This document shows, one piece after another, positions 9,317-41,057 of a stretch of DNA of 64,000 nt (the stretch's first letter is position 1; each line of letters opens with the position of its first letter). The stretch spans positions 448,001-512,000 of the forward strand of contig OY969585.1 of assembly GCA_963701295.1 (NCBI GenBank), written 5' to 3'. This DNA comes from Ignavibacteriota bacterium (GTDB taxonomy: Bacteria; Bacteroidota; Ignavibacteria; UBA10030). The notes below the pieces were generated by a model. The model was given only the letters and a program-made list of their open reading frames with translations, had not been told where the DNA came from and made no database searches. Position numbers and translations under genes: made by a program.

Positions 9317-9432
<116 letters not shown>

Positions 9433-19586: not shown

Positions 19587-19712
19587 AACCGCCACCCCCT
19601 TGCATTAGGAGTGAAAAACGACATGTGTTATAATTGACATAGTCATATACCATGCAACTTCATTATGAGCTAGGGCACCTCATCCTTTGAAATACTTTGA
19701 AAGGTTAACTTA

Positions 19713-20591: not shown

Positions 20592-20826
20592 CCAGCCATC
20601 CAAGCTGACGAGCATTTTAACGGCTGGAAAGCACATAGCATTCTGCTCACATCGCTTATATATTTGAAATAAAGTTTTATCAGTATTCGCCCCGTTGTTT
20701 TTCCGCTGTGGACGAATTATCCGCACCTCGCAAAACAGCAGGATAAACACTTAAATATTACACGATAGAACTACAAGAAATTTACCTTAAATAATTAAGT
20801 ACAGAACAATTAAAAGGAATACCCAT

Positions 20827-21481: not shown

Positions 21482-21506
21482 GAGATAATATATTTGGAGG
21501 CTGTGC

Positions 21507-21961
21507 ATGATTTGTACCACCGGTAAATTTAGTTTACTTGAACAATTATGGATGCAAATAACATTTGATGGAATATGGATACTAGGTTTAATATCAATTT
21601 CAATTATCAATCCGTTTATTTCAATAGTGTATTTTCTTTTTTGCTTTTTTGGAATATTTTTTCTAATCATGCATTTATGGATTTGTCCAAGATGTCCGCA
21701 TATCAAAGAGTATTCGGCATGTTCTCAATTCCTTCCGTTTCTTACAAAAAAATAATTAAAGAAAATGTTTCCGGTAATTTAAAGCTATATGAAAAAATTG
21801 GGTTCTGGATAATATTGTCTGGAATATTTATTTTTCCATTATTTTGGGTACTCAAGAATCGATATTTCATTCTTCCGTACTTCATACTTGGTTTCATGCA
21901 TTATTCAACATACTATGTTCACTTTTGTAAGAAATGCATCAATATATACAACACCATATAA
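21507..21961 (+). pseudogene. Cys-motif membrane protein split by a frameshift in an A-tract (~21746)
   Basis: GGAGG SD; ORF 21507-21755 (CPRCPH) continues in ORF 21575-21961 (FCKKCIN). Confidence 0.65.
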
Positions 21962-22206
21962 GTCTCCGATTCTCTTCGTCAAAGGCGCAGCCGTCTCTTG
22001 GGGAAAACTGCTCATAGATTCAAAATTTAATGATACAACGACAAACAATGGGAACAAAATAAACGAAATAGACGTTCATTTATTTATCGAGTATATACAA
22101 GAAAACCGTTGGCAAGAAAAAGGAGCTTGGCTATCCCTGCACTCCCCTCAAAATTGTTTTTAAAGAATTCAACTAAAATCATTTTAAGCCGAGAAGGAGA
22201 CAAACG

Positions 22207-23664: not shown

Positions 23665-23759
23665 AGATACATGTGGTGCTAGTAAAACATTGTTACTTGA
23701 AGGTTAACTGCAAAGCTGCTAAGTGAAACGCCTATGTTTCGCTTGAAAGAAAAGAGAGA

Positions 23760-23786
23760 GCGCCAGACCGCTTTGCGGTCTGGCGC
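23760..23786. terminator. perfect 12-bp hairpin between convergent genes
   Basis: GCGCCAGACCGC-TTT-GCGGTCTGGCGC followed by a pyrimidine tract on the minus strand. Confidence 0.75.
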
Positions 23787-23827
23787 ATCCGCCTCAGGAA
23801 GAATCGGCTTATCTGCATTCAAAGTAT

Positions 23828-25405
23828 TTAACGGATGAGAAGCATTTTCTTCTGGAGGCTCGCATGATCTGTTTGAAGCCTGTAGACGTACATCCCCGAA
23901 GCGGCCGGGCGGTGACATTCATCTGTCCCATCCCAGACGATGATATAAGTTCCCATACCTTCAGTACGTTGTGCAAGTGTCTTCACTTTCTGCCCCAGCA
24001 GGTTGTAAATGATTAAGCTTATGTGAGACGGTGATTTTAGGGAGAACTGGATCGCGGTTGCAGGATTGAACGGGTTTGGATAATTCTGTTCCAGAGAAAA
24101 GTTATAAATAATATTAGGTCGTTCAGCAAATCCTCCACTGTCTCTCATGCCCGTCATCAGTAAAGAGTATTTTTTCAGGATGCTGATGGTAGAGGAGTCA
24201 GTATCAAAGACCGAATTTAATCCTTGTGCTTCCATGGGCGGGTCGCACATGAAAGGATTTCCCACACGCCAGGTGAAATCACTGTTTGGTGAGCGGGCTT
24301 CTCCGCCCCAGCCCCAAAAATTTGAACCCGCAATCGGTGCTCCCGTTGCAGCACTATTATAGACCAATTGGAGCAAGGCGTCATAGTATTGATCGCGAAA
24401 TGTTACCGCGCTACTGGGGCTGTATTCTTCGTTATCTCTCGGCAACCCGAATTCTTCCATCGTAAGAGGCTTGTTGAGTTGGCGGGCGTAACCGATATGA
24501 TCGCTGATGTAAGTACTCGCTTGTAAGAGAGCACTGGAGTATGTTCCGCTCATATTAGAAGAGTTAATCCATCCCCAGTTCAGCGCCCAGACATGAATTG
24601 TCGCGTAGTCTATAGAAGGACTTTGATGGGCGGAGAGAAAAACATCCGATCTCTCAAGACAACCCATCGTCCCTTCATTTCCCGTTGTCACGAGATGATT
24701 TGTGTCGATAGAATGAATATAGTGTGCAGTCGAATCTATCCATTCATAAAAAGCATTCAAATAAGCAGCGGTATTTCCCGGACGGGGTTCATTGGCAAGC
24801 TCCCATGCCATGATAACCGGGTCTTCGTAATAATATAATCCGCTTACTGTATTCTGCCGATGAATCAAATCGTTAATGTATTGTTTATAGGTGGCATTTG
24901 CTGAAACATTACGATAAAATGGCGAAGCATCATACAAGCTTCCGCCGCCGCCAAACCAGGAAAGATACTGAGGCATGCCGCCGGACCAATTCCAATAGTT
25001 ATTTAAGAAAATGACAGCTTTCATATCTCTCTTCCCCATTTCAGAAAGCAGAAAATCTAATCCGATAAGAAGAGAATCGTCATATACTCCCGGCGATGTC
25101 TGAATGGCCGGTTGTACGACAGCTTGATTGGTGGAAGCCTCCGAAGCGCCGAGGATTCTGAGGTTATCGATTCCGTTGGATTTCAACCGGTCGAGTTCCC
25201 GGAGAAGTCTCAACGTATCGCCTGTCTGCCCCGTTGAGCCGATATAGCAGCCGTACCAAAAATTTGTGCCAACAAAATAGTACGGTTTGCCTTCCAATAT
25301 AAAGTGAGTATCCTGCACCTGCACATAGTGATATTGAGAGATCGCGGTTGTTGTGCAGAGTAATGTGAGAATAAACGAAATAGTGTATGTAGTAATTTTG
25401 GTCAT
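23828..25405 (-). CDS. GH5 beta-mannanase/mannosidase-like enzyme with T9SS C-terminal domain
   Basis: GTNFWYG, WELANEPR (acid/base), EEFGLPRD (nucleophile), NFWGWGG; QNYPNPFNP...SGMYVYRL...KKMLLIR CTD. Confidence 0.88.
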   Translation of the reverse strand: MTKITTYTISFILTLLCTTTAISQYHYVQVQDTHFILEGKPYYFVGTNFWYGCYIGSTGQTGDTLRLLRELDRLKSNGIDNLRILGASEASTNQAVVQPAIQTSPGVYDDSLLIGLDFLLSEMGKRDMKAVIFLNNYWNWSGGMPQYLSWFGGGGSLYDASPFYRNVSANATYKQYINDLIHRQNTVSGLYYYEDPVIMAWELANEPRPGNTAAYLNAFYEWIDSTAHYIHSIDTNHLVTTGNEGTMGCLERSDVFLSAHQSPSIDYATIHVWALNWGWINSSNMSGTYSSALLQASTYISDHIGYARQLNKPLTMEEFGLPRDNEEYSPSSAVTFRDQYYDALLQLVYNSAATGAPIAGSNFWGWGGEARSPNSDFTWRVGNPFMCDPPMEAQGLNSVFDTDSSTISILKKYSLLMTGMRDSGGFAERPNIIYNFSLEQNYPNPFNPATAIQFSLKSPSHISLIIYNLLGQKVKTLAQRTEGMGTYIIVWDGTDECHRPAASGMYVYRLQTDHASLQKKMLLIR

Positions 25406-25503
25406 ATCTGCTTCAATACGTTTTTCTACACTATTGAATTCTATCAGATTGTTTCATCTAAATATAGACATTTATTGGAATAATTATAAGAGACGATCAC
25501 TAA

Positions 25504-25610
25504 AGCTTATCGGGTGAAGTGACTTCACCCATACGTATTTTTATGCTCTGCGATGGAACACGCACCAGCACGCTATGCAGTTTGGCGTGTTCACCTTCAT
25601 CAATCCGCCC
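25504..25610 (+). repeat. diverged direct repeat with REP-like palindrome, copy 2
   Basis: AGCTTATCGGGTGAAGTGACTTCACCCATACGTATT...CTCTGCG. Confidence 0.7.
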
Positions 25611-25907
25611 AAAATATGGCGGATGCCCGCCAGGATACATGTTGGGTAAACACAAAACGCGAAAAACGGTAGACAAGCCACTTCATTTACAGAAACAAAG
25701 AAACTTGTTTTGCTGAAGTAACAGGCAAATGTAAATAACGTCAAGTAGCATGGTGCTTATTACCGTTTTCTTAGAATACACCAAGCACCTTTTTTTCTGA
25801 ACCTCCGATTTGTGAGTTACTCGTTTTTCTACTACATTCATGCCGTTCTATTCTGGATTATTGTCATCCCGCAAAAATGAACCGAACAATCATTACTGGA
25901 GGTCTCT

Positions 25908-27932
25908 ATGAGATGGTTTTTTTTCGGTTTACTCGCCGTTCTGTTTATTGTAACATGTTTCGCACAATCCAAACGGGCAATCGTATTCGACGATCTCATT
26001 GGTTTCGGGCGTGTCTCCGATCCGCAGATCTCTCCGGATGGAAAAACTGTTGCGTTTATCATTACCCGTCAGCTGAAAGAAGAAAACAAGTCTAACAGCA
26101 ATATCTACCTGGTTCCTATCGAAGGCGGAGAAGTCCGGCAATTGACAAATGCCAAAGATATCAATAACAATCCGTGCTGGCTTCCGGATGGGAAGGCGAT
26201 TGCTTTCATATCGACAAGGGACGGGACATCGCAAATATGGAAAATTCCCGTCAATGGCGGTGAAGCACTGAAAGTTTCACAGATAGCCACGGAGGCATCT
26301 AAGCTAATCGTTTCTCCGGACGGCAAGTGGTTTGCATTTGCGTCTGATGTGTATCCAGATTGCCCGGACGAAAATTGCAACAAACAGCGGCTCGAGTCGA
26401 TCGAGAAAAGTAAAGTGAAGGCAAAAATTTTCACGACGCTTCCATTTCGTGTGTGGAATTATTGGAAGGATGGAAAACGGAGCCACTTGTTTGTTATGCC
26501 GTCGGGCGGAGGGAAAGCAGTTGACGTGACGCCCGGTGACTACGACACTCCCCCTATCGACCTTGGCGGCAATTGGGATTATGCCTTCTCTCCGGACAGC
26601 AAGGAAATTGCTTTCACGAGAAATCCCGATACACTCGTGGCAATCAGCACCAATAATGAAATTTACGTCGTTCCTGTTGAAGGAGGTGTGATAAAGAAAA
26701 TTACAGATAATCCCGCGAATGACAGTCAGCCTCTCTATTCACCTGACGGGAAATACATCGCCTTCGAAATGATGCATCGGCCCGGATTTGAAGCAGACCG
26801 GCGGGAACTTGTTCTCTACGAACGGGCTTCTGGAAAATTCATCAATCTCACCGGCACATTCGATTACAGTGTTAGCGATGTTGTATGGTCTCCGGATTCG
26901 AAGTCGCTCTTTTTTAATTCAGACGATAAAGGGAATGTCACGATTTTTAATGTCCGCGTGAAAAATAAAAAGATCACTGCAATCCTCAACAAGGGCTTCA
27001 ATGAATCAATCCGGTTGACGCCCGATGGAAAGTCAATAATCTTCGCAAAGGAATCGATTAAACTGCCAGCAGAACTTTTCAAGATGGATATCAATGGAGA
27101 CAATCTGAAGCAAATAACATACACCAATGCAGGAAAATTATCCGAATTAGAGATGAATACCCTTGAAGATTTTTGGTTCGAAGGTGCCGCCGGAACACGC
27201 GTGCAGGGCTTTGTACTCAAACCGCCGTTGTTCAAAGAAGGGAAAAAATATCCGATGATTTTCCTGGTGCATGGAGGTCCGCAGGGGCAATGGGGCGATG
27301 AATTCCATTACCGGTGGAACGCACAGATGTTCGCTTCGCGCGGTTATATTGTTGTGATGATCAACCCGCGAGGCAGCACGGGCTACGGGCAAAAGTTCAC
27401 CGATGAAATCAGTAAAGATTGGGGTGGTAAGGTGTACGAAGATTTGATGAAGGGGCTTGACTATGTTGTCAGGTCTTATTCCTATATTGACAGCAATCGT
27501 GTCGCCGGCGCCGGTGCTTCATACGGAGGGTATATGATGAACTGGATACTCGGACATACTGATCGTTTTCGATGCATTGTATCGCATGACGGAGTATTCA
27601 ATCCTGCAAGTGCGTACGGTACTACAGAAGAGCTCTGGTTTGACGAATGGGAATTTAACGGAACGCCGTATAAAAACCCCGAGTTGTACAAGAAATGGTC
27701 GCCGATGGAATTCGCGAAAAACTTTAAGACACCGACACTGGTCATCCATGGCCAGCAGGATTATCGTCTCGACGTGAGTGAAGGATTTCAACTTTTTACA
27801 GCACTTCAGCGGCAGGGAGTGAAATCGAAAATGCTTTACTTCCCGGATGAATTCCACTTTGTTGTAAAGCCGCAAAACGCAGAACTGTGGTATAAAACAG
27901 TTTTGGATTGGATCGATGAGAATACAAAATGA
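25908..27932 (+). CDS. S9 family (dipeptidyl/acylaminoacyl) peptidase
   Basis: PD40 repeats (SPDGK), HGGPQG, GASYGG nucleophile, D-YR, FPDEFH. Confidence 0.93.
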   Translation: MRWFFFGLLAVLFIVTCFAQSKRAIVFDDLIGFGRVSDPQISPDGKTVAFIITRQLKEENKSNSNIYLVPIEGGEVRQLTNAKDINNNPCWLPDGKAIAFISTRDGTSQIWKIPVNGGEALKVSQIATEASKLIVSPDGKWFAFASDVYPDCPDENCNKQRLESIEKSKVKAKIFTTLPFRVWNYWKDGKRSHLFVMPSGGGKAVDVTPGDYDTPPIDLGGNWDYAFSPDSKEIAFTRNPDTLVAISTNNEIYVVPVEGGVIKKITDNPANDSQPLYSPDGKYIAFEMMHRPGFEADRRELVLYERASGKFINLTGTFDYSVSDVVWSPDSKSLFFNSDDKGNVTIFNVRVKNKKITAILNKGFNESIRLTPDGKSIIFAKESIKLPAELFKMDINGDNLKQITYTNAGKLSELEMNTLEDFWFEGAAGTRVQGFVLKPPLFKEGKKYPMIFLVHGGPQGQWGDEFHYRWNAQMFASRGYIVVMINPRGSTGYGQKFTDEISKDWGGKVYEDLMKGLDYVVRSYSYIDSNRVAGAGASYGGYMMNWILGHTDRFRCIVSHDGVFNPASAYGTTEELWFDEWEFNGTPYKNPELYKKWSPMEFAKNFKTPTLVIHGQQDYRLDVSEGFQLFTALQRQGVKSKMLYFPDEFHFVVKPQNAELWYKTVLDWIDENTK

Positions 27933-28096
27933 TACACGCTTTATATTTGGTCATAACTCCTCTACGTTAGGAGTAAAAACACATATATTACAATTTACTT
28001 TATTGTATGACGCACAACTTGACGGGAGTTGAGTTGCCCCCAGAAGAATCAGTCGGCATGCTTAGATAAACCGTCTGGTAGAACACGGAGGACAAA

Positions 28097-28792
28097 ATGA
28101 CAACCAAGAGCCGCTTGGCAGATTTCGATCACCCGATTATTAAAAAGAAAGCCGCGGAACTAATGCTTGGGAAGCAAACCATTGTGGATAAACTTGAGAG
28201 CATCTTTTCGTTCGTTCGTGACGGAATTAGGTTTGGATTCCCGCCCAAGTGGGATGAAGTGAAAGCGTCTCAGGTCATCAGTTACGGTTTAGGTTACTGC
28301 AATACGAAGGCAACTCTCTTCCATGCTCTCAGTCAAGCTTGTGACATACCTACACGCGTCCATTTCGGCCTGATCGACATCAGGATTATGCGAGGAATAC
28401 TCCCTTCATTTGCTTTTCCCTTCATGCCAAAAGCCGGCGGACACTCTTGGATTGAGGTGCAGCTGGATGGCCAATGGAAACCCATTGACTCCTATATCAA
28501 CGACAAGGTGTTTTATGAAAGAGCTCTCAAGCGGCTAAGTGCCGCTGGAAAGGCAATCGGCTATTCAATTTCCTTCGTTGAAGGGAAATCCAGCTGTGAA
28601 TTCAACTTCGGTGAGAAAGGTTTTGTACACATGGGAGCGGTTGTGGAAGATCACGGCGTCTGGGAAGATCCGGCAGAATACTTTGCTTCACTTAAGTACC
28701 GTCGGTTGAATACGATCCAATCAATGTTCTATCCCGTTCTTGCTTTGTTGGTAAATCGCAATGTTGAAGGTATTCGCGCGAGCGCAGTTTGA
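28097..28792 (+). CDS. transglutaminase-like domain protein
   Basis: GYCNTKA...HSWIEV...W..ID Cys-His-Asp triad. Confidence 0.85.
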   Translation: MTTKSRLADFDHPIIKKKAAELMLGKQTIVDKLESIFSFVRDGIRFGFPPKWDEVKASQVISYGLGYCNTKATLFHALSQACDIPTRVHFGLIDIRIMRGILPSFAFPFMPKAGGHSWIEVQLDGQWKPIDSYINDKVFYERALKRLSAAGKAIGYSISFVEGKSSCEFNFGEKGFVHMGAVVEDHGVWEDPAEYFASLKYRRLNTIQSMFYPVLALLVNRNVEGIRASAV

Positions 28793-28804
28793 TCTCAGCC
28801 CATC

Positions 28805-28865
28805 AAGCTTATCGGGCGAAGGCACTTCGTCCCTGCTCACGGGCTTGATAAATCAAGCCCCTACG
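28805..28865. repeat. two adjacent REP-like palindromes
   Basis: AAGCTTATCGGGCGAAGGCACTTCGTCCC and GGGCTTGATAAATCAAGCCCCTAC (GTAG foot on the minus strand). Confidence 0.7.
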
Positions 28866-29223
28866 ACCGACAATTCCCATCCTCTTACAATCTCAAATTC
28901 TCAATTCTTCACTCTCCACCGTTTATCACTCACCGTTCTCTCTCCACTGTTTACTATTCGCTGTTTACTATTCACTGTTCACCACTTCCTCACTCCCCAA
29001 CTTTTCAACTACACACTAACCAACTACGAACTAGTTACACAGTTTCTCTCTTGCTTCTCTCCTGCTATTCTCTTGCATCTCATACAACAACTGTTTAAAT
29101 TTTCTTTTTAACTGACAGTATCGAAAATCAAATCAAGATTGAAACAGCGCCGGTAGATTTCGTAATCCGGCATCTTTGAAAATGTAGTTTATATAACATG
29201 GCAAAGAAAGGAACGATCGCACT

Positions 29224-31173
29224 ATGTCAACAGACTTGCAGACTTCCGGCACCATTTTAAAAAAAGTTTTATTTTCTATATTATTATTGTTGAGTACTAT
29301 TGGTATATCTTACTCACAGCAGTGCGGTCAATGCTCATACCCGAGAATTATTTTTTATGACTGTACTATACAAGTCCCTCGCCCAACGATACAGGATTCA
29401 TTATCGAGCTGGTGGGCTTTGGCGTGGCCGGCGTTTTGGGCACACACTTCAATTGTCAATGACGATGAAACTGGCGGTTGTATCTCTTACATTGATAGAG
29501 GGAGCACTTTTTCATTATTATCGCATGGAGATACTTATCTAAGTGATGTAGATTACGCGAATTTGCCCCCCTCTGGCGCAATTAATTCAGCTGACTATAT
29601 CTTTGTCAGTTATGTCTCTGGCTCAAACGGAAATTATACGTTGACCTTACAGCTCCAGACGGCTGTATCGCGGGAGGTTGTAAAAAGCATTAGTGAAAAC
29701 TTTACCGGTGACCCTGCAAGCAGAGAGCCTGCCGGCGAAGCGGCCGCGTCTGCATTTCTGCCGCTCATCCAAACTATCTGGAACTATGAAGTGAATAAAC
29801 GGAATACTGACGTTACTGTTGCAATGTGTGATGTGAAATATCAAATGCCAAATATAGTGACGGTGACGCCGGAGAAAACAAAGGTAGATACGGGGGAGAC
29901 CATCAACGTTAACGTTGAAATGTATGATTGTGACGGTGCCCCTTTAGGGAATCGGACAATTTATTTCACAGATACCACTGTCAATGGTTTATCGCTCAAA
30001 GGTACAACCGGCGGTAAAATGAATCCATCTGTTGTCACTACTGATTCTCACGGAAAAGCATCCGTTCAATTCACAACAACTCAGAACATGGGTTATTCGC
30101 ATATTGTCGCTTGGTATCCACATAAGAAGCCTTGCGGAAGAGCAGGTTCATTTATGGGTACGGCAGATGTTTTGACCAAGATGGCGGGTAAGAATATCTG
30201 GGTCGTCCAGGGATCGATATCATCACAGACTATTACCACCGGTGACACTAATGTCACATATGTAGCAGGATACAGCACGTATCAAAGGGACTATCAGGAT
30301 AATGCCTCGGCATCTTTTATTGCATTCTTCTATGTAGACAACGGCAGCGATACAACAATAAGCCTCGCTGATTATCAAGAAGATGATCCAGAATTCAAGA
30401 TAACCATTTCCGGGTCCGAGCAACAGGATTTGTTCTACAAAACTGATGTTGAAGCGGAAGGCGTCACTCCTGACGTTTATATCAAGACGGAACACACAGT
30501 CGGACAGTTATTCGACTACAGCGATACCGGCTTCGAGTTCTATTACCCGGCTGATCCTAGTAGTACGGCAGTCGGTTTTATATGCGGAGGACAAGGGCAA
30601 TGCACAGGGAATATAAAAAAAACGGATACCAATCCCCAATTTCATTGGGATGATGACAGTTATAGCGTCGAGAGCGATTGCAGCATTTCGGGCTATTTCA
30701 ATGGGAACGAATGTACAATGACCAGAAACGGAAACTCATATTCGGTTACAGGCGACCAAACTCACGTGGAGCATGAGTACGAAGGTGCAGACCAAGGCAC
30801 ACAGATTACAAAAGTGTATAACCACATTACTGCCAAGATCTGGCTTTATGATTCAACAGCAACTGCGATACATCAATTAAAAGGATTACTGCCTTTCACA
30901 AACAAGTTGCTCCAGAACTTTCCAAACCCATTCAACCCGGAAACAAATATCGGATATCAACTGGCTTCGAACAGTTTCGTTACTCTTAAAGTATATGACA
31001 TTCTTGGAAGAGAAGTAGCGACATTGGTAAATCAACGCCAAAATGCCGGAGACCATAGTATAATGTTCAATACTTCAAAATATTCGAGTGGAGTCTATTT
31101 CTATCGCATCCAAGCAATTGAAAATAGCAGCAAGAATTTTACATCGATAAAGAAGCTCATGGTGTTGAAATAG
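29224..31173 (+). CDS. Cys-rich exported protein with Ig-like domain and T9SS C-terminal domain
   Basis: Signal peptide; VVTTDSHGKASVQF Ig-like motif; QNFPNPFNPET...SGVYFYRI...KKLMVLK. Confidence 0.8.
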   Translation: MSTDLQTSGTILKKVLFSILLLLSTIGISYSQQCGQCSYPRIIFYDCTIQVPRPTIQDSLSSWWALAWPAFWAHTSIVNDDETGGCISYIDRGSTFSLLSHGDTYLSDVDYANLPPSGAINSADYIFVSYVSGSNGNYTLTLQLQTAVSREVVKSISENFTGDPASREPAGEAAASAFLPLIQTIWNYEVNKRNTDVTVAMCDVKYQMPNIVTVTPEKTKVDTGETINVNVEMYDCDGAPLGNRTIYFTDTTVNGLSLKGTTGGKMNPSVVTTDSHGKASVQFTTTQNMGYSHIVAWYPHKKPCGRAGSFMGTADVLTKMAGKNIWVVQGSISSQTITTGDTNVTYVAGYSTYQRDYQDNASASFIAFFYVDNGSDTTISLADYQEDDPEFKITISGSEQQDLFYKTDVEAEGVTPDVYIKTEHTVGQLFDYSDTGFEFYYPADPSSTAVGFICGGQGQCTGNIKKTDTNPQFHWDDDSYSVESDCSISGYFNGNECTMTRNGNSYSVTGDQTHVEHEYEGADQGTQITKVYNHITAKIWLYDSTATAIHQLKGLLPFTNKLLQNFPNPFNPETNIGYQLASNSFVTLKVYDILGREVATLVNQRQNAGDHSIMFNTSKYSSGVYFYRIQAIENSSKNFTSIKKLMVLK

Positions 31174-31576
31174 CAGTCCGCGTCAGGCAAGGAATTCTTT
31201 TGAGGAGTTGGGAATAAAGGGGCCCTCGACAAAAAAAGACATGGAGTTAAACTCCGGCATTCTATCTTGCCTCAGGAGTGGATTAATCTGCCGAAATCAC
31301 GTTCTCTGTGACGCAGGGGGAACTCCTTCGGAACAACGAGGAAATTTCCTGCTATTCGTTCATAGACTCCACTGCTCTTTTACTCATCTACTCATAGACG
31401 GCTTACTCTTTACCATTTACTCTTCACTCTTTACTGTCTTTCCCTCCCCTTGCTTCTCTTCCTAAAACTTACTACACTTTACCCAAGTAGTTTCCATTCC
31501 TAGCCATTTTGCAGGATTCGCTTCAACGCTGCACTGCAATCGCAACTGCTGAGAACTTTGTTCAGGAGGAATTAGC

Positions 31577-31999
31577 ATGGATCAGCCGGTACTTTCCGAT
31601 AAAACACAATTTCCCACGGAAGAAATAATCTCTTTGCATCTCGGGAAAACAAAAAACATCTGGGATTCCTTTTTTGAATATCTTCACGAGAACCATCCCG
31701 ATATGAGTTCGGAGTGGCGGTATTACAATGACGGGAAAAGTTGGCTGATGAAGAATACACGGAAGAAAAAGACGGTCTTCTGGTTATCCATTCTCAAAGG
31801 GACTTTCAGAATTACTTTTTACTTTACCGACAGAGCAGCTAAGGCAATTGCGGATAGTAATATTCCCGCGGAAATGAAAAAGCAGTTCAAAGATGGAAAA
31901 CATTATGGCAAAATCCGGGGACTGACGGTTTTATTTAAATATAAAAAGGATATCGAGACTGCAAAAACACTCTTAGCGATTAAATTGAGCATTAAATAA
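31577..31999 (+). CDS. DUF3788-like protein
   Basis: EWRYYNDGKSWL..KKKTVFW pattern; strong AGGAGG SD. Confidence 0.75.
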   Translation: MDQPVLSDKTQFPTEEIISLHLGKTKNIWDSFFEYLHENHPDMSSEWRYYNDGKSWLMKNTRKKKTVFWLSILKGTFRITFYFTDRAAKAIADSNIPAEMKKQFKDGKHYGKIRGLTVLFKYKKDIETAKTLLAIKLSIK

Positions 32000-32318
32000 A
32001 ACAGCAAGAACCGACTGCGCGGTGGGAGAGCCATTCAGAGAGGCGGATATATGTATCAATACTTAATGAAGTTAATTCGACCCCTGTGACACATCTGTTA
32101 ATCGACTCAAAGACTCATAGGCTCTTAGACTCGACTTGCATTTTCTTGCTTTTCAAACCAAAAAATACCACACTAAAAAGAGAAGCAACTCAAATGCATA
32201 AACCAACGCATGTTGCTTCACATTCTTTTTTTCCCAAAAACGCTTGAAACATTCTGTGTTTTAAGAGTGAATTAGCAAAGTATTTTCACTACTTTTAAAA
32301 TATAGATGAAGAATACTT

Positions 32319-33806
32319 ATGAATAAATTTGAATTCAGTAATAAAGTCGTTGAGAACATTCTGCAGGAGTTGCGGAGGGCAAGGAAATACATAAGAATTG
32401 CTGTATTTCAAATTCACCAAGAAGATGTTTTTGCTCTTTTAATCGAAAAACTTAAGCAAGGCGTAAGAGTTGAAATCATCACTCTTCCTTACGATTCAAT
32501 TAATCTTGATGTACAGTTAAATGTTACTGCACACTTTGAGAAACTTAAATCCAATGGAGCTCGATTACATTTTTGTGGATGGAACGTTGGTGATCCTGAA
32601 AGAACATCAACCGCAATCGGAAGATGGTATTCATTCCACGGAAAATTCATCGTTACTGACAAATCAGCAATTTCACTTTCAGCAAATTTTACAACTAAGA
32701 ACGAACTTGATTGCAGTCTGATTTCAAATGACGCGAAAATGATTTCGCATTACAACTTCAAATTTGATGAGTTGTATAATCTTTTCGTAAAAGAAACAGA
32801 TGGTTATTCAGGTTCAATCCGAAAAAAGGTTTTAGAGGCGAATCCAAATGCAAGCGAACTTTTCAAGTTGCCAAAAGTCATTGAAACCAAAACACACGAA
32901 AGGCATTGGATTCATCACTACCCTTCTTCTCTTTGTCCTCAATTAGTACCAGCGGAAGACGGACTATTCATTGTTCCGTTTGATATTCGCGGAAGAAGCT
33001 TTTATGAGGAGAAAATTAAGAGCGCTAAGAAATTTGTTTTCATTTCAACCGAAAGTTTTACAGATACAGATTTTGCAGATTTCCTGATTAAAACTTCTCT
33101 TAAAGATTTACAGATAAATATTCTCACAGGAGCAACGAGCATGGACTTTGCAGACAGAATGCAAGCCATGCTTCGTGATTTACTTGCAAATAATATCAAA
33201 GTAAAAACTATCAATGACGATTTGCATGGCAAACTTTTACTCACCGACAAACATCTTGTTATAAGTTCAATCAACTTGAATAAGATGAATCTTGGCTTTA
33301 ATAAGACTAGTCAATTTTGGAGAGAAAACACGGAAACAATTACTGTATGCTCCGATAAAGCAGTAATCGTCGAAGCTAAGAAACAGTTCTCTACAACCTT
33401 TAAGAAAGCAATAGATATTGAAGATATATTGGTAAAGAAATTATTATCAAAAGTTGGAAATGTTTTTTCAAAATACTACGGAATCAAATCAGACAAAGAA
33501 GCGAAGAACTTGTTTGCAAAGTTTCTTTTAAGGCAGGAAATTTATGTAAAGAAATTAGCGACAACAGTTGCTAAAATTAGTGGGAGAATTATTACAAAGT
33601 TGAAAAAGAAAAAAGTATGTAAGAATGAATTTATTATGTCGTTAATCCTATATTTCCTTACAGAAAGGAAATTATCAAAGAATGAGATAAAGGATAAAAT
33701 TGATGTGCTGGATACTACTTATGATTTATCCTCATTAATAAAAATTCTTGTAGCAGAAAAATTTATTGAAAAAGATGGCGATTATTATAAAATTAAGATA
33801 ACCTGA
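32319..33806 (+). CDS. tandem phospholipase-D-domain protein with C-terminal winged helix; putative nuclease
   Basis: Two HxKxxxxD motifs (FHGKFIVTD...SANF; LHGKLLLTD...SINL); AT-rich; 12 bp upstream of a DNA methyltransferase. Confidence 0.8.
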   Translation: MNKFEFSNKVVENILQELRRARKYIRIAVFQIHQEDVFALLIEKLKQGVRVEIITLPYDSINLDVQLNVTAHFEKLKSNGARLHFCGWNVGDPERTSTAIGRWYSFHGKFIVTDKSAISLSANFTTKNELDCSLISNDAKMISHYNFKFDELYNLFVKETDGYSGSIRKKVLEANPNASELFKLPKVIETKTHERHWIHHYPSSLCPQLVPAEDGLFIVPFDIRGRSFYEEKIKSAKKFVFISTESFTDTDFADFLIKTSLKDLQINILTGATSMDFADRMQAMLRDLLANNIKVKTINDDLHGKLLLTDKHLVISSINLNKMNLGFNKTSQFWRENTETITVCSDKAVIVEAKKQFSTTFKKAIDIEDILVKKLLSKVGNVFSKYYGIKSDKEAKNLFAKFLLRQEIYVKKLATTVAKISGRIITKLKKKKVCKNEFIMSLILYFLTERKLSKNEIKDKIDVLDTTYDLSSLIKILVAEKFIEKDGDYYKIKIT

Positions 33807-33818
33807 GAATAAATTTAA

Positions 33819-34703
33819 ATGAATAGTGAACTAATAAAAGGAAATTGTTTAGCGTTTCTAAAAGGCAAATTAGAGCGATATTTTGATTTGACATTTCTGG
33901 ACCCACCTTTTAATCAAGGTAAATATTATGAAGGGCATGACGACAATATGGATGCAAACGAATATTGGAAATGGATGAAAGAAATATGTTATCATATATT
34001 CCAACACACAGAAGAAGGTGGTTGCATCTATTTTATGCAACGAGAAAAAAACACTCAATATGTTTTAGATACATTATCGACAACTGGTTGGCATTTCCAG
34101 AATATCATTATTTGGAAAAAGAAATCTTCGGCTGTTCCTCAAAACAACAGGTTCGGGAAGCAATATCAAGTGATTGCCTTTGCGACAAAAGGAAATCCAC
34201 CCCGGGTATTTAACAAACTTAGAATTGACCCGCCGCTCTTGGTAACAGAAAAATATGCAAGGGAGAACGGAATGTATGTAACTGATGTTTGGGATGACAT
34301 CCGAGAATTAACCTCTGGTTACTTTGCAGGGGACGAACCATTAAGAGTTGAAGACGGTTCACGTCTCCATAAACAACAAGCACCAGTTCAATTATTGGCT
34401 AGAATAATTTTAAGTTCCTCTAAAGTTGGTGATTTAATCTTTGATCCGTTTGCAGGAACAGCAACTACTCTAGTTGTTGCAAAACAATTGTTGAGAAATT
34501 CAATTGGGATTGAATTGAATCCATTAAACATAGAGAGCGCAGAAAAAAGATTGTCTGAATTAAGGAACAGCGATAATATTTTAAAATTCCGCAACGATTA
34601 TCGATACACGGAAGGACTCGATGATATTTGGAGAGTAACCGACAAACCATCTATTCCATTGCCTGTTAAATCAAAAGATGGAACACTTGCATTTAAGTTT
34701 TAA
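33819..34703 (+). CDS. beta-class N6-adenine/N4-cytosine DNA methyltransferase
   Basis: Motif IV DPPF precedes motif I DPFAGTATT; TDVW, HKQQAP. Confidence 0.92.
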   Translation: MNSELIKGNCLAFLKGKLERYFDLTFLDPPFNQGKYYEGHDDNMDANEYWKWMKEICYHIFQHTEEGGCIYFMQREKNTQYVLDTLSTTGWHFQNIIIWKKKSSAVPQNNRFGKQYQVIAFATKGNPPRVFNKLRIDPPLLVTEKYARENGMYVTDVWDDIRELTSGYFAGDEPLRVEDGSRLHKQQAPVQLLARIILSSSKVGDLIFDPFAGTATTLVVAKQLLRNSIGIELNPLNIESAEKRLSELRNSDNILKFRNDYRYTEGLDDIWRVTDKPSIPLPVKSKDGTLAFKF

Positions 34704-34807
34704 AGTCTCACACCTCTTAACCTCAGCGAGTTCGTCACCACACTCACGGAACTCAGCGCCATTGCCCCTGCAGCAAACATAGAGTTGAGTAAACCCATCG
34801 CCGCCAA
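34700..34807 (-). repeat. displaced copA 3' end, copy A
   Basis: 108 bp with 7 differences from 37863-37970; reads [35 protein letters not shown]. Confidence 0.95.
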
Positions 34808-34825
34808 CTAAGGGAGCTCAAAAAA

Positions 34826-36010
34826 CTACATGATTAAAGATCTCTCCATTGCATCTCCAACTTTTCTGGAAGAGCCGGCGCGAAGCTCATTTATAATTCC
34901 GGGTATTATATCTGTTACAGTATTCACTTCTTCTTCTGTTGTGTAACGGCTCAATGAAAACCGTATCGATCCGTGAATAGCATCATCCGGCACTCCCATT
35001 GCCCGCAAAACATGACTCGGCTCGGAAGAACCTGATGAACATGCCGATCCGGCTGAAGCGCAAATGCCGTATGTATCAAGTCGATGTAAAAGAGCCTCGC
35101 TGTCAACATGAGAAAAACTTATACTTGACGTATTCGCCAAACGCTCTGAATCACAGCCATTGATAAATATGCCTGAACATGTACTCTTCAACTTTAATTC
35201 TAAAAGGTCCCTGAGCCCGGCAACACCCGTCTGTTCGCATGCAATATTTTCCAGGGCAAGCTCGCATGCTTTTCCGAGGGCAGCAATCGATGCCAGGTTC
35301 TCGGTGCCGGCTCTCTTTCCGCATTCCTGATGGCCGCCTAATAAATAGGGAAAAAACTTGCAGCCTTTTCTTACATACAGTACACCGATACCTTTCGGCG
35401 CATGCAGTTTGTGGCCCGACATTGAGAGCATATCCACACCAAGCTTTTTCACATCTATTGGGACCTTCCCGACAGCCTGAACCGCATCGGTATGAAAGAG
35501 TATTCCGCGTTCACGGCACATCGCACCAATTTCTGCGATCGGAAAAATTACACCGGTCTCATTGTTCGCATACATGATTGAAACTATTACAGGTTCGTCA
35601 TCAATTGCATTCATGAATGCATCGATATCAAGCCTTCCCGCTCTATCGACCGGCAAATAGGTGGCTTTATATCCTTTCTGTTCCAAATGCTTTACAAGAT
35701 TAAGAACTGCAGGATGTTCTACTTGAGATGTGATTATATGCCGTTTATTTTCACCTAACTGAATCGCGCTTGAAATCGCTGTATTATCACTTTCCGTTCC
35801 GCAGCTTGTAAAAATTATTTCCTCCGGCTCTGCGCCTATCAGTAATGCGACATTTTCTCTGGCCTGCTCTATTTTGTAATAAAGATTTCTGCCAAAGGAA
35901 TGACTGCTCGAAGGATTGCCGTATGATTCTTTTAAGTAAGGGAGCATTTCGTTCAAAACCTCGGGCGAAATAGCAGTAGTAGCGTTATTGTCCAGATATA
36001 TGGTTTTCAT
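34826..36010 (-). CDS. nifS: cysteine desulfurase NifS/IscS type
   Basis: YLDNNATT, FTSCGTESDN, HTDAVQAVGK, SGHKLHAPKG, SAGSACSSG. Confidence 0.9.
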   Translation of the reverse strand: MKTIYLDNNATTAISPEVLNEMLPYLKESYGNPSSSHSFGRNLYYKIEQARENVALLIGAEPEEIIFTSCGTESDNTAISSAIQLGENKRHIITSQVEHPAVLNLVKHLEQKGYKATYLPVDRAGRLDIDAFMNAIDDEPVIVSIMYANNETGVIFPIAEIGAMCRERGILFHTDAVQAVGKVPIDVKKLGVDMLSMSGHKLHAPKGIGVLYVRKGCKFFPYLLGGHQECGKRAGTENLASIAALGKACELALENIACEQTGVAGLRDLLELKLKSTCSGIFINGCDSERLANTSSISFSHVDSEALLHRLDTYGICASAGSACSSGSSEPSHVLRAMGVPDDAIHGSIRFSLSRYTTEEEVNTVTDIIPGIINELRAGSSRKVGDAMERSLIM

Positions 36011-36029
36011 TTTTTCTCTCTTTGAGTTT

Positions 36030-36464
36030 TCATGAACATCTTACATTTTCTTTCTGAAGAATCTCATATAATATGCCGGCCGCCTCGGCGGTTAATTTTT
36101 TGCAATCCAGTTTGATTTTCTGTTTCTCCATCAAATCCAGAATTTTTTGACAATTTGTGGAACTAAAATTTTTTAAAAACTGATTCCTGAATTCAGCTGA
36201 CAATGAATACACCTTTTGTTTATCATCACTTGGATCCTCCCGTCCAAACAAGCAGCCCAGGGCTATAATGCCGCCGGTCAAAGCTCCGCAGGTCTCGCAA
36301 TGGGATCTGCCGATTCCCCCGCCAAAACCGGAGGCAAATTTTGTAATACCTGGATCCGGTTCTTTATTATACAATTCCACAAACGATTTTAGAATTGCCT
36401 CAGCACAGTTGAATCCTGAGTGGAGAAACGTAAAGGTCTTCTGTTCAATATCTACCTTTGTCAT
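36030..36464 (-). CDS. C-GCAxxG-C-C family putative redox protein
   Basis: FNCAE, GFGGG, TCGALTGG, TNC, LDC. Confidence 0.88.
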   Translation of the reverse strand: MTKVDIEQKTFTFLHSGFNCAEAILKSFVELYNKEPDPGITKFASGFGGGIGRSHCETCGALTGGIIALGCLFGREDPSDDKQKVYSLSAEFRNQFLKNFSSTNCQKILDLMEKQKIKLDCKKLTAEAAGILYEILQKENVRCS

Positions 36465-36529
36465 GATTTTTCTCCTTAAATTATTGCGTATTTAGAAAGT
36501 TGAATTTTTACGATTATAAGTCTATATTT

Positions 36530-36595
36530 ATATTAATCAATCGGAAACGTTGTGTCAATAGTCCAATATTGATACTGTAAATCGGATAAATCGAT
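36530..36595 (-). promoter_or_regulatory. promoter of the redox/nifS operon and LysR-type operator
   Basis: TTGACA-17-TAATAT on the minus strand (36530-36558); ATCG-N7-CGAT T-N11-A dyad at 36581-36595. Confidence 0.6.
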
Positions 36596-36616
36596 AGATA
36601 AAGGGCTATTAAAATT

Positions 36617-37519
36617 TTGGATATAAAGCAATTATTCACTTTTAGAACAATAGCAGCGCTTGGCAGTTTCAACAAGGCCGCAGATGCGCTTAACTATGCA
36701 CAATCGACGGTATCCGAGCAAATCAAAGCGCTTGAAGGAGAATTGAGTGTAAAGCTATTCAATAGAGATGGAAAATATATATCGCTCACTCCGGCGGGTG
36801 AACTTTTTCTACAATACGCTCAAAAGATGATAAACCTTGAAGAAGAGATTCGAACGGAAATAAAAGGAAGCGAAGAAGTTCATGGTTCTTTATCAATTAG
36901 AATTCCAGAAACCATCAGTACCTATTACCTGCCTCCGGTTTTAAAAATATTTAAGAGCCGTTTTCCCCATGTTGATTTTCATTTTAATTCCTGCTCTTCT
37001 TATGGGTTACATGAAGAATTGCGTTCCGGAATAATTAATCTCGCATTTTTGATAACCAAGGACTTCCGGGATGTTGATTTAGAAACACATACTTTAATGG
37101 AAGTTCCGTTAATGATGGTTACATACCCGAAAAATCCAATTGCAGCAAAATCCATTGTGCAGCTAACCGATATAAAAAATGAACCCATATTTGTGACGTC
37201 CAGTGATTGCAGCTATTTCAAAATATTGGAAGAACTTTTTATCAATAAGAAAATCAAGATGTCAACATTATACCGTATCAACAGCATTGAAGCAATAAAG
37301 CAAAATATTGCTGCAGGTACCGGAATCGCCCTTCTTTCAAAGATAGCCGTGCATGAAGAAATATCGAAAGGTTCACTTGTTGAATTGCCTTTGGAAAAAG
37401 GACCTTCGAGCGCCAACATGCTCATGATCCGCTTAAAAAATAAATGGCATCCGCCTATTTTGGAAGCATTTATGGAAATAATGAAAGAAACTTTATCCCT
37501 ACAGCTTCACCCCTCGTAG
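36617..37519 (+). CDS. LysR-family transcriptional regulator
   Basis: GSFNKAADALNYAQSTVSEQIKALE..LF.R..LTPAG helix-turn-helix; divergent from the redox/nifS operon. Confidence 0.93.
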   Translation: MDIKQLFTFRTIAALGSFNKAADALNYAQSTVSEQIKALEGELSVKLFNRDGKYISLTPAGELFLQYAQKMINLEEEIRTEIKGSEEVHGSLSIRIPETISTYYLPPVLKIFKSRFPHVDFHFNSCSSYGLHEELRSGIINLAFLITKDFRDVDLETHTLMEVPLMMVTYPKNPIAAKSIVQLTDIKNEPIFVTSSDCSYFKILEELFINKKIKMSTLYRINSIEAIKQNIAAGTGIALLSKIAVHEEISKGSLVELPLEKGPSSANMLMIRLKNKWHPPILEAFMEIMKETLSLQLHPS

Positions 37520-37592
37520 CCTCAGCGAATTCGTTACTACACTTACAGAACTCAACGCCATTGCTCCTGCGGCAAACATCGGGTTAAGTAAA
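37499..37592 (-). repeat. displaced copA 3' end, copy B
   Basis: 94 bp with 11 differences from 37863-37956, all synonymous in the copA frame. Confidence 0.95.
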
Positions 37593-37754
37593 ATTCTTTT
37601 ACTTGCGCCTGCGAAATCGATAGAAGTATACTGGGCTAAGGCGCGAGAGTACTTATTATATCCGATTGATACGTTCTAAACATATTACTCATTGTATCCT
37701 GAATCCGAACTCCACCTTGAGATAACACATTTCGATTTCGCATGCGTTTCTTTC

Positions 37755-37786
37755 TGCTGCTTTCTTTTCGCCAAAAGAAAGCAGCA
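37755..37786. terminator. 14-bp hairpin downstream of copA
   Basis: TGCTGCTTTCTTTT-CGCC-AAAAGAAAGCAGCA. Confidence 0.65.
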
Positions 37787-37862
37787 TTAAGCACAATTCA
37801 CATATCAGTTTTAAGTTACATGTTTCCTGGATTCCCGCCTTCGCAGAAGAGAAAGTAACACC

Positions 37863-40121
37863 CTACAGTTTCACCCCTCGTAACCTCAGCGAGTTCGTCA
37901 CCACACTCACGGAACTCAGCGCCATTGCCCCTGCAGCAAACATCGGGTTGAGTAAACCCATCGCCGCCAAGGGAATGCCGATACTATTATAGACAAATGC
38001 CCAGAAAAGATTCTGCTTGATCGTGCGCATTGTCTGTCGGGAAAGCCGGATTGCCCGGAGAACTCCTCTGAGATCGGATTTCATCAAGGTAATATCCGCC
38101 GTTTCCATGGCTATATCCGTGCCGGTTCCTACGGCAATGCCTACATCTGCCTGCGCCAGCGAAGGCGCATCATTCATCCCGTCGCCCACCATTGCCACGA
38201 TCTTCCCCGCCGACTGAAGTTCTTTTATTTTCGCGGCTTTATCCTGTGGCAAAATTTCCGCAAACACTTTTTCGATACCGGCTTGTGCGGCAATTGCGCG
38301 CGCTGTGCGGGAGTTATCGCCCGTGAGCAGAACGAGTTCGAATCCCATTTCTTTCAATTCCGCTGCCGCTTTTTCCGATGCAGGATGAAGCGTATCCGCA
38401 ACGGCAATGATACCGAGAAGTTTGCCATCGGCGGCAACTAAAATTGACGTTTTGCCTTGCTCCGAGAATCGGAGGATTGCGCTCGATGCAATCGCGGTAT
38501 CGATGGATGCATCCCGCATCATCTTCTCGCTCCCCACCGCCGCCTTTCTGCCGATCACAGTTCCCTCGACTCCAAATCCCGTGAGAGAGCGGAAGGAATC
38601 CGTTTCAACCAACACAAGAGAACGATTTGTTGCTTCCCGCACAATGGCTGTACCCAGCGGATGCTCGGATTTTTTTTCCAGCGAAGCCGCCAAACGCAGG
38701 ACTATCTGTTCATCGATACCATCAAAGCCTTGAATGTCCGTTACGGAAGGCGTGCCGGAAGTGATAGTACCGGTCTTATCAAACACAATCGTATTTATTT
38801 TATGCGCCCGCTCTAGACTTTCGGCATTTTTGATCAGCACACCGAGCGTCGCACCTCTGCCGGTACCGACCATAATCGCCGTGGGGGTTGCAAGTCCGAG
38901 TGTGCACGGGCACGCAATAACAAGAACCGCAATGGCATTCATCAAAGCTGATGCAAGACCAATTCCAAGAACGATATACCAAACGCAAAACGCCGCGAGA
39001 GCAATCACCATTACAACAGGCACAAAGACAGAAGCAATTTTGTCGGCAAGATGCTGAATGGGAGCTTTGGAGCCCTGCGCTTCTTCGACAAGCTTTGCAA
39101 TGTGCGCAACAACCGTATCCGCGCCGACAGCAGAGGCACGGAATTCAAAACTTCCGTTTCGGTTAATCGTACCGCCGATTACCTTATCGCCGATGCTTTT
39201 TTCAACGGGAATACTTTCGCCGCTCACCATCGACTCATCGACGGAAGAAGAACCTTTGAGGATCAAGCCGTCGACCGGAATGCGTTCGCCGGGCCGCATG
39301 ATTAAGACATCACCGACAGTAACATACGCAATCGGAATTTCAAACTCTGTATAGTCTTTCATGATCCGTGCAGTCTTCGGCTGAAGTCCCAATAATAGTT
39401 TTATGGAATCGGATGCCTTGTGTTTTGCGCGGGCTTCGAGCATCCTTCCCATCAAAATGAGCGTAATAATGACAGCCGCTGAATCGAAATAGACATTATA
39501 GAGATTCGTGCCCGCTGGAAACCATTGCGGGAAAAGCACAACAGCGGCGCTGCAGAGAAATGCCGCTCCGGTGCCGACAGCAACCAGGGTATTCATATCC
39601 GCCGCAAAATGTTTTGCCAGTTTCCATGCAGGTTTGAAAAAACGTTTTCCGGAAATAAACATCACCGGTATCGTGAGAATAAGCAAAAGTCTATTGACTT
39701 CATCCATCGATAAAAGAACGAGGGTCATAAACCACACGGTCATGCTCAGCATATTGATCAGCACGATGGGAACGGTAAATATGAGGCTGAGGAAAAATTC
39801 ACTCTTGAGCTGGCGGTAGGATTTTTCTTGATGAGAATCTTCCGAAGACTGCCCTCGTACTTGACTAAGAGAATCTTCGGAAGATTTCCGAGGCAGGACT
39901 AATTGATATCCTGCACCATCAACAGCTTTTGCGAGTTCTTCGAGAGACGTTTTTTCCGGATCGAATGAGAGCGCAACTGCTTCCGTTGCAAGATTGACAC
40001 TGGCGGTTTCAACGCCGTCGATTTTCTTCAGTGTTTTTTCGACCCGTGCAACACAGCTTGCGCACGTCATTCCTTCCACGGGCAGCGTCAATGTTTCTAT
40101 ATGATGAGCAGGCTCATTCAT
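37863..40121 (-). CDS. copA: Cu(I)-translocating P1B-type ATPase
   Basis: GMTCASC HMA domain, CPC, DKTGT, SEHP, GDGMND, YN and MALSS motifs. Confidence 0.93.
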
Positions 40122-40324
40122 TGAATCGAAATAACTTTGTATCCGGCTTCTTCTATTTTCTCGGAAAGAACTTTGATGACATTTTGATCGTCATACCAGA
40201 CTCGCGCTTTGCCGACCTGCACATCTTCGACTTCCAATCCATCGACTGAGTCGAGTGCTTGCTTCACATGCGACACACAGTGACTGCAGCTCATTCCCTG
40301 TATCGTTAATTCGTGAGATTTCAT
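40118..40324 (-). CDS. copZ: CopZ-like heavy-metal chaperone
   Basis: GMSCSHC HMA motif; stop overlaps the copA start. Confidence 0.88.
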
Positions 40325-40487: not shown

Positions 40488-41057
40488 TTATATCTTTCCC
40501 TTCAACGGATTTTCATTATCATATAACCATTTCACCGGATTATTCATAATATAATCCCGGATGTTGTTTAGATCTTTATCGCTGCGGATGATGTGCTCGT
40601 GATAATTGCGTTGCCATACGGAATTTCCCGATGTATTCCGGAAAAGATTTATTCCTTTTGCCGAAGTCATCTTGAACCGTCCGATGATTTTGGATAATGT
40701 CATTTTCCTTCGCTGTTGTTGTGTCGTTGGTAGGGGCGATTCATGAATCGCCCCTACAGGTTCGGTTAAAGCAATGATGCCATGGATATGATTCGGCATT
40801 ATGACAAATCCGTCTAATTCCACATTCTGATAATACGCTGATATCTCCTCCCAACATTTCTTTACTATTTCTCCTTCCGGAGATAATCGCATCATCTCTT
40901 CCTCAATTTCACCGAAAATACATCCATGATTATGTGTACATATCGTGACAAAATATTCTCCAGGAGATGAATAATCATACTCTTTTAACCGAATAGAACG
41001 GCGCTTGTATCTGTTGATACTGTCCAACGATTGACGTACCGGTAGTAATTCTTTCAT
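40488..41057 (-). mobile_element. REP-associated tyrosine transposase (RAYT, Y1 HUH)
   Basis: RRSIRL..YDY, YFVTICT, MPNHIHGI (HUH), WQRNYHEHIIR, YI..NP. Confidence 0.92.
40730..40758. repeat. REP element in frame inside the RAYT gene
   Basis: GTAGGGGCGATTCATGAATCGCCCCTAC, translated as VGAIHESPL. Confidence 0.88.

What the first reader, a model, noticed from the sequence alone, without database searches (positions are those of the whole stretch)
34700..37970. Stack of displaced copA 3' ends, each bordering different cargo: integrase-free gene accretion at a protein-coding gene
Seen: the last 30-35 codons of copA, including the stop, occur three times in the same orientation. These are the live gene (37863-37970), copy B (37499-37592) and copy A (34700-34807). 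Copy B differs at 11 positions and every change is synonymous in the copA frame. Copy A has 7 changes, mostly in the last six codons, and keeps frame and stop. Different cargo follows each end: a ~270-bp remnant, the LysR/C-GCAxxG-C-C/NifS module, then the PLD-nuclease/MTase pair. No integrase or recombinase is present in the window, and the two copies differ in length (94 vs 108 bp). Inference: purely synonymous divergence means these were once functional copA ends from related alleles. Incoming DNA would repeatedly replace the copA tail and push the old tail plus its cargo downstream. This fits either an undescribed copA-targeting integrative element mobilised in trans or homology-anchored illegitimate recombination during transformation, making copA an expandable landing pad for defence and stress genes.
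Basis: partly seen in the sequence, partly recalled or inferred. Interest (0 to 1): 0.85.

Follow-up and report, generated by a model that had tools for sequence, protein, structure and literature searches.

The report
Stacked copA gene-tail recombination scars
Behind this bacterium's copper-pump gene, and in most species of its genus, lie leftover copies of the gene's own end between blocks of extra genes; they likely mark repeated additions of DNA from related species by ordinary recombination, with old leftovers likely reused as joining points and no integrase seen nearby.

Summary
Observation confirmed: copy B (94 nt, 11 silent changes) and copy A (108 nt, 7 changes) lie behind live copA. 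It is genus-wide: 12 of 16 genus genomes carry displaced tail pieces (up to 8 each). Their left ends run from 38 to 143 nt before the stop, so there is no fixed att core, and no integrase was found among 110 island-region proteins. copA is scrambled between species along its whole length (rho -0.11 to 0.30 against topA; control gene 0.79-0.91). The same left junction is followed by unrelated cargo in different species, and copy B is fresher than its old spacer, so crossovers fell inside the tail copies. Best reading: host recombination anchored in copA, with the second joint in the tail, adds a module and displaces the old end; old tails likely serve as reusable sockets. This is the rhs 'C-terminal displacement' / HFIR pattern moved to a housekeeping gene with an invariant tip. 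Cargo is mostly ordinary accessory genes, not defence. The scan noted the same pattern earlier at other genes (AACS, thiN, ppsA, fdhF, aspS; unchecked notes).

The parts
37863..40121 (-). live copA, 752-aa copper-translocating P1B ATPase; the recombination anchor; inter-species mosaic
   Evidence: TIGR01511 607 bits over cut-off 397; mosaic
37863..37970 (-). live 3' end of copA (the duplicated segment)
37593..37862 (.). non-coding spacer with a ~190-bp dispersed inverted-repeat element and palindrome remnants; 86% identical to spacers of G001, G004, G010
   Evidence: (z -2.4 for 37605-37750)
37499..37592 (-). copy B: displaced copA end, 94 nt, 11 silent changes, fresher than its spacer
36617..37519 (+). 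LysR regulator, convergent on copA; its last codons and stop lie in the antisense of copy B
36030..36464 (-). C-GCAxxG-C-C protein (module shared with G004 at 87-88%)
34826..36010 (-). NifS cysteine desulfurase; ends 18 nt before copy A
   Evidence: TIGR03402 over cut-off
34700..34807 (-). copy A: displaced copA end, 108 nt, near-identical to the live allele except one codon and the last six
33819..34703 (+). N6/N4 DNA methyltransferase, convergent, stop overlapping the copy A stop; not found in the relatives' loci held
32319..33806 (+). PLD-domain protein (two PLD stretches), likely the nuclease partner of the methyltransferase
   Evidence: only weak DrmC/DpdK hits
16935..32318 (.). older part of the variable island (DUF3788, secreted proteins, peptidase, catalase, dapF, aminotransferase), mostly on +, no tail copies
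16536..16934 (-). response regulator: far core flank; follows copA directly in G002 (empty site); no displaced 5' pieces found
40118..40324 (-). copZ-like chaperone, also discordant with topA (rho 0.18)
40488..41057 (-). REP-associated tyrosine transposase-like gene with REP palindromes; link to the stack not shown

Best explanation
Displaced copA 3' ends lie stacked between cargo blocks across this genus, and they are likely scars of additive insertion by the host's own recombination machinery, anchored in copA, without a dedicated integrase. Likely steps: (1) DNA from a related species carrying its copA end plus downstream genes pairs with resident copA (shown: copA is an inter-species mosaic); (2) the far end of the incoming DNA is joined inside the last ~40-300 nt of the resident copA, first by micro-homology (HFIR-like, inferred), so the gene is completed by the donor allele and the old end with its cargo is pushed downstream; (3) once such copies exist they provide the second homology arm, or let modules loop out and re-enter as circles, so crossovers fall inside the copies (shown by reassorted flanks and refreshed tails; linear versus circular donor not resolved); (4) copies then decay, are invaded by REP-like repeats, and are duplicated, deleted or carried to other loci with their modules.
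For: Genus-wide copies: 38 pieces at E<0.01 in 11 genomes plus one in G014; 3 of 4 new metagenome lineages with a live or displaced end beyond known ones plus L054 carry copies. Variable left ends. No integrase or recombinase among 110 island-region proteins; only one Y1 transposase. copA windows vs topA distances rho -0.11 to 0.30, topA self 0.69-0.92, control gene 0.79-0.91; sharp breakpoint in G011 copA ~300 nt before the stop. 5 of 19 left-junction classes precede more than one downstream context and 6 of 33 downstream classes follow more than one left class; one near-identical left flank leads to three unrelated cargoes in G001, G004, G010. Copy B has 0 amino-acid changes though its spacer is 14% diverged from kin (P 0.01-0.04 at 5-7% per-lineage drift). 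Copies are often nearer to other species' live alleles than to their own. Single displaced tails at about 4 other genes and 5S rRNA in G000, none of this kind upstream, point to a generic process. ComEC, DprA and a ComEA-like gene are present. Published models predict this anatomy (Jackson 2009 PMC2935791; Kirchberger 2017 PMC5361080).
Against: No junction was caught forming; no circle or strain-level before/after pair was available (one genome per species). copA scrambling is also expected from whole-island replacement by double crossover (Oliveira 2017 PMC5635113; the far flank is discordant too, rho 0.29-0.34, n=6), so it does not by itself prove additive events. Reassorted flanks could come from deletions between copies inside one chromosome. 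The L0 left class is partly low-complexity, which inflates its count. 45-140 nt at 80-90% identity is a poor RecA substrate (own knowledge). Competence genes are common (10-11 of 14 control genomes) and do not show competence. The model does not explain why only the copA side leaves pieces or why 30 of 35 next genes are convergent.
Confidence: 0.7

Rival explanations
1. An undescribed site-specific integrase, acting in trans or lost from these islands, targets the copA 3' end, as tycheposons and IME/CIME arrays do at tRNA or gene ends.
For: Strong focus on one gene end; nearly all full copies keep the last ~40 nt and a weakly conserved ~15-nt flank past the stop; some left ends recur (-94, -71, -46/-48, -125); in Prochlorococcus most islands hold no element at a given time (10.1101/2020.12.28.424599, passages); the genome has 14 PF00589 matches elsewhere.
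Against: Left ends spread over 38-143 nt (longer pieces to ~300); recurring ends share their flank by descent; no integrase in 110 proteins from 13 genomes' islands; no viral match, only distant copA genes in plasmids; whole-gene mosaicism; other genes show single tails.
Confidence: 0.08
2. REP-associated HUH transposases (RAYT) cut single-stranded DNA near REP hairpins and join it to the copA tail, producing the variable junctions and the repeat patchwork.
For: Many junctions abut GTAG- or CGTC-type palindromes; in L057 two 142-bp units of REP doublet plus tail follow the live stop, and REPs attach at GTAG sites inside copA pieces; Y1 genes in 16 of 16 genus genomes, and the only G000 match lies next to copZ; TnpA-REP cleaves at CT at variable distance and does strand transfer in vitro (PMC3479197, passages).
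Against: Repeat enrichment at left flanks is weak (14 of 43 vs 83 of 400 control windows, not independent); copy A's junction has no repeat; G002 has 6 Y1 matches and an empty site; REP ends commonly supply TAG stops anyway (PMC3733652); does not explain allele replacement in copA.
Confidence: 0.1
3. Local duplication, slippage and deletion inside one chromosome make the copies; no foreign copA alleles are involved.
For: Tandem units in L057 and G006, duplicated spacers in G004 and G011; copy A is nearest to its own live allele.
Against: Copy B differs only at silent sites, which neutral drift after duplication would not give (P about 5e-5); most long copies are nearer to other species' alleles. 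It explains some copies, not the founding ones.
Confidence: 0.08
4. The copies are strain-chimera assembly artefacts.
For: All sources are metagenome assemblies; no read or contig bridged the junctions.
Against: Seen in 12 of 16 separately assembled genus genomes and in further metagenome contigs; copies are decayed and share junctions across species; G000 is one contig.
Confidence: 0.02

Closest known systems
rhs C-terminal displacement (Jackson et al. 2009, PMC2935791; passages read)
   Same: Strings of 3' gene fragments of variable length behind one intact gene, incumbent end shunted downstream, no integrase, limited to related sequences; homologous recombination proposed.
   Different: Here the gene is a housekeeping copper pump whose tip is invariant in amino acids, so the tail itself gains nothing; cargo is unrelated and mostly convergent; fragments are only 40-300 nt and 80-94% identical.
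Sequential displacement of T6SS effector-immunity modules by homology-facilitated illegitimate recombination (Kirchberger et al. 2017, PMC5361080; passages read)
   Same: Conserved upstream anchor, additive insertion, older material and a 3' end shifted back, no integrase evidence.
   Different: No effector or immunity logic; the second joint lies inside the anchor gene itself and old tails appear to be reused.
MGE-free HGT hotspots with recombining flanking core genes (Oliveira et al. 2017, PMC5635113; passages read)
   Same: Variable island without integrase, flanking core genes phylogenetically discordant.
   Different: That model is replacement by double crossover at both flanks and leaves no duplicated gene ends.
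Tycheposon and IME/CIME tandem accretion at tRNA or gene 3' ends (10.1101/2020.12.28.424599, passages; PMC5704250 search listing only)
   Same: Modules separated by partial copies of the target gene, newer ones pushing older ones outward.
   Different: Those use an integrase and a short fixed attachment site; here left ends vary and no integrase was found.
Integron cassette arrays
   Same: One-direction arrays of accessory genes separated by a repeated recombination element.
   Different: The tail is not a hairpin (z -0.6 to 0.3); the genome's attC family (107 hits) has none in the window and its IntI lies about 0.56 Mb away round the origin of numbering.

Membership tests
Site-specific integrative element array (IME/CIME/tycheposon type) | Integrase encoded next to the att site in at least some members | tested here: not met
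   None among 110 proteins from the islands of 13 genomes or near the locus in G000
Site-specific integrative element array (IME/CIME/tycheposon type) | Fixed crossover core shared by all displaced ends | tested here: not met
   Left ends from 38 to 143 nt before the stop
Site-specific integrative element array (IME/CIME/tycheposon type) | Excised circles or attP on phage or plasmid | tested here: inconclusive
   No viral match; plasmids only distant copA genes; the one run laid gave no joints and little cover
Integron | attC hairpins between cassettes | tested here: not met
   Tail folds no better than shuffles; attC family absent from window
Integron | IntI at the head of the array | tested here: not met
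   IntI-like gene (recognised by eye from its sequence and PF00589) at C1:3566706-3567665, far away
C-terminal displacement arrays (rhs/CDI/T6SS) | Variable-length 3' fragments stacked behind an intact gene, no integrase | tested here: met
C-terminal displacement arrays (rhs/CDI/T6SS) | Variable toxic tip with cognate immunity gene | tested here: not met
   Tip is the conserved copA end; cargo unrelated
C-terminal displacement arrays (rhs/CDI/T6SS) | Circular intermediate | not testable with these tools
   No bridging reads
Homology-facilitated illegitimate recombination | Homologous anchor on one side showing donor alleles | tested here: met
   copA mosaic
Homology-facilitated illegitimate recombination | Micro-homology at the far joint | tested here: inconclusive
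   A few matching bases at copy A's left end by eye; donor sequences unknown, no count made
Homology-facilitated illegitimate recombination | RecA dependence and natural transformation | not testable with these tools
   ComEC, DprA, ComEA-like genes present only
REP/BIME arrays moved by RAYT | Junctions at REP feet or CT sites | tested here: inconclusive
   Examples; weak enrichment

The most novel reading that the evidence does not exclude
Displaced copA tails are self-propagating homology sockets: after one founding duplication, any module closed by a tail copy can be added in front of a recipient's array by two crossovers in the same gene, so the genus runs an integrase-free, integron-like cassette array on a housekeeping gene, refreshed across species borders.
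Probability: 0.45. Interest if true: 0.72.

Novelty: new variant of a known kind. Interest (0 to 1): 0.52.

Why it matters
Many gene-transfer hotspots lack integrases, and the standard explanation (double crossover at both flanks) replaces rather than adds genes. Here additive growth leaves datable scars at one core gene across a genus, with direct signs that old scars are reused as crossover sites. That gives a simple, testable route by which such islands expand, and a sequence signature (orphan 3' ends) that can be mined genome-wide.

Tried and rejected
attC or integron reading (GTT-type core seen by eye): tail not structured, attC family absent. Fixed att core near the short inverted repeat at -94: left ends vary. 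Conserved post-stop flank as copA terminator: folds inconsistent among 14 live ends, no terminator call there; left unexplained. mRNA/cDNA origin: modules include divergent genes with shared promoters. 'copA is the only gene affected' was revised after a more sensitive scan. Mirror stack at the far flank: none. Repeat enrichment at junctions: weak. Outside the genus: 1 of 19 loci self-searched had a displaced tail (G057); in a 161-genome order search (93 weaker matches not listed) four short-frame hits checked were a frameshifted gene or contig ends or a truncated gene, not stacks. Reads: no RNA holder listed; one DNA run gave small identical pieces in LysR, the spacer and copA, none bridging. 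The dN/dS-like tally includes one misframed row (41 of 158 non-synonymous); without it 128 silent vs 117 non-silent in copies, 167 vs 36 in live ends. Literature searches listed no paper on copA as such a site; most hits were seen as listings only, and subscription papers are not covered. Viral, genome and plasmid scans gave no element.
Full report
Observation. Copy B has 11 changes, all silent; copy A has 7, two of them changing residues; both keep a stop. Nothing else in the single-contig 3.64-Mb genome matches. The gene is a copper-translocating P-type ATPase. LysR and the methyltransferase face copA and end in or on the copies. The 270-bp spacer holds a dispersed inverted-repeat element, not a gene remnant.

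Distribution. A search of 61 relatives showed extra short matches in the genus. I fetched 20 regions and found, with a profile of 12 live ends, 38 displaced pieces at E<0.01 in 11 genomes including G000, up to 8 in G004 and 7 in G006; G014 adds one: 12 of 16 genus genomes. G002 has the empty site (copA then the response regulator), G007 has a short island without a copy, G013's contig ends 2 kb on, and G003 gave no copA match. A metagenome scan returned 8 loci, 3 identical to genus genomes; of the other 5, four hold copies. A genome scan with a genus-type pattern returned only records titled Ignavibacteriae or Bacteroidota MAG. Outside the genus, 1 of 19 loci had a displaced tail. In G008 and G014 tail pieces sit with their modules at loci away from live copA.

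No dedicated machinery. Pfam on 110 of the 128 cluster representatives and extra ORFs from these regions (the rest being copA, window genes scanned and core genes beyond the island) gave no integrase or recombinase; one Y1 transposase lies in the G008 array. The tail is not a hairpin, the genome's attC family avoids the window, and viral and plasmid collections gave no attP. Of 50 pieces placed, 34 reach the stop; dropping three poorly placed rows (16, 19, 59) their left ends run from 38 to 143 nt.

Recombination in copA. Distance matrices of 200-nt copA windows in 12 species do not follow topA (rho -0.11 to 0.30), while topA windows follow the rest of topA (0.69-0.92) and a control gene 35 kb away follows topA (0.79-0.91). 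copZ (0.18) and the far response regulator (0.29-0.34, six species) are discordant too, as Oliveira 2017 describes for hotspot flanks; so scrambling alone does not prove additive events. Long copies are mostly nearer to other species' live ends than to their own; copy A is the exception.

Crossovers inside the copies. Clustering left and right flanks of 51 ends, 5 of 19 left classes precede several downstream contexts and 6 of 33 downstream classes follow several left classes. One near-identical left flank leads to an RND pump, an 801-aa gene and a 276-aa gene in G001, G004 and G010; LysR follows different left flanks in G000 and G004. The G000 spacer is 86% identical to those of G001, G004, G010, where the tail behind it is decayed, yet copy B has no amino-acid change (P 0.01-0.04 at 5-7% drift, 0.14 at 3%). 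The simplest reading is that an old junction was joined to a then-live tail. Internal deletion could give some of this reassortment. Copies otherwise decay (128 silent vs 117 non-silent codons after removing one misframed row; live ends 167 vs 36) and are broken by REP-like and tandem repeats; L057 shows two tandem REP-plus-tail units.

Specificity. Among 2768 ORFs of G000, copA is the only one with two orphan ends; a more sensitive scan, prompted by earlier notes of this scan, found single downstream tails at about four other genes and none of that kind upstream, and the 5S rRNA end is duplicated around a 135-aa ORF. The process looks generic, with runaway stacking at copA.

Mechanism. Shown: stacked ends, variable left ends, no integrase nearby, mosaic anchor, reassorted flanks, a refreshed tail. 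Inferred: host recombination with DNA from relatives, founding joints by micro-homology, reuse of old tails as second arm or for loop-out circles. Jackson 2009 proposes circles for rhs; Kirchberger 2017 proposes HFIR for T6SS arrays; my data do not choose between them. Unexplained: 30 of 35 next genes are convergent against 480 of 2768 genome-wide (modules repeat among species, so not independent), the one-sidedness, and the weakly conserved 15-nt flank. copA lies on the leading strand by GC skew, cargo mostly opposite.

Known and new. It works like C-terminal displacement but is not a toxin array, an integron or an integrase island. Papers: passages of PMC2935791, PMC5361080, PMC5635113, PMC3733652, PMC3479197 and 10.1101/2020.12.28.424599 were read; others only as listings; no supplements were opened. 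Eight searches listed no report of copA as such a site. Earlier unchecked notes of this scan describe the same pattern at other genes, so it is recurrent; what this locus adds is genus-wide depth and evidence for reuse of the scars. Verdict: real, new variant of a known kind, interest 0.52.

Noticed in passing
window 8505-8575 and 9271-9341: The last ~26 nt of 5S rRNA plus its downstream hairpin are duplicated (96%) around a 135-aa ORF (8679-9086, -) with no PADLOC or NCBIfam hit: a displaced RNA-gene end of the same style.
   Followed up: partly
G000 C1:54061-55503, 1498517-1501066, 3255949-3256689, 1462206-1463219: Single short displaced 3' ends 1-2.4 kb downstream of a histidine kinase, a permease-like gene and two others.
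   Followed up: partly
G000 C1:3566706-3567665 and clusters near 228-246 kb, 1.16, 1.80, 2.39-2.50, 2.82, 3.13-3.17, 3.44, 3.53-3.56 Mb: An IntI-like gene and about 107 attC-family hits in many separate clusters: a large, dispersed integron system.
   Followed up: partly
window 37605-37750: A ~140-190-bp element with inverted ends, 5 more copies in the genome (two beside the IntI-like gene) and shared among relatives; family unknown, no Rfam match in the window scan.
   Followed up: partly
L057 (oriented 754-1037): Two tandem 142-bp units of a REP doublet plus the last 71 nt of copA directly behind the live stop, whose final bases form the REP's GTAG foot.
   Followed up: partly
L067 (G057), 1.6 kb behind copA: An independent displaced copA end in another family, with a 9-nt internal deletion, behind a 209-aa ORF.
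   Followed up: partly
L047 (G008:C15) and L117 (G014:C341): Array modules with tail pieces sit beside carbohydrate-metabolism genes, away from live copA.
   Followed up: partly
L040 (G005:C84) vs window 34826-37519: A second, unrelated LysR / C-GCAxxG-C-C / NifS trio in the opposite orientation was captured at the same site in another species.
   Followed up: no
window 17020, 25504, 28806: A 27-nt palindromic repeat occurs three times in intergenic gaps of the island.
   Followed up: no
G000 C1:529284-531000: Two convergent tyrosine integrase matches just past a tRNA cluster, about 18 kb beyond the window's right end.
   Followed up: no
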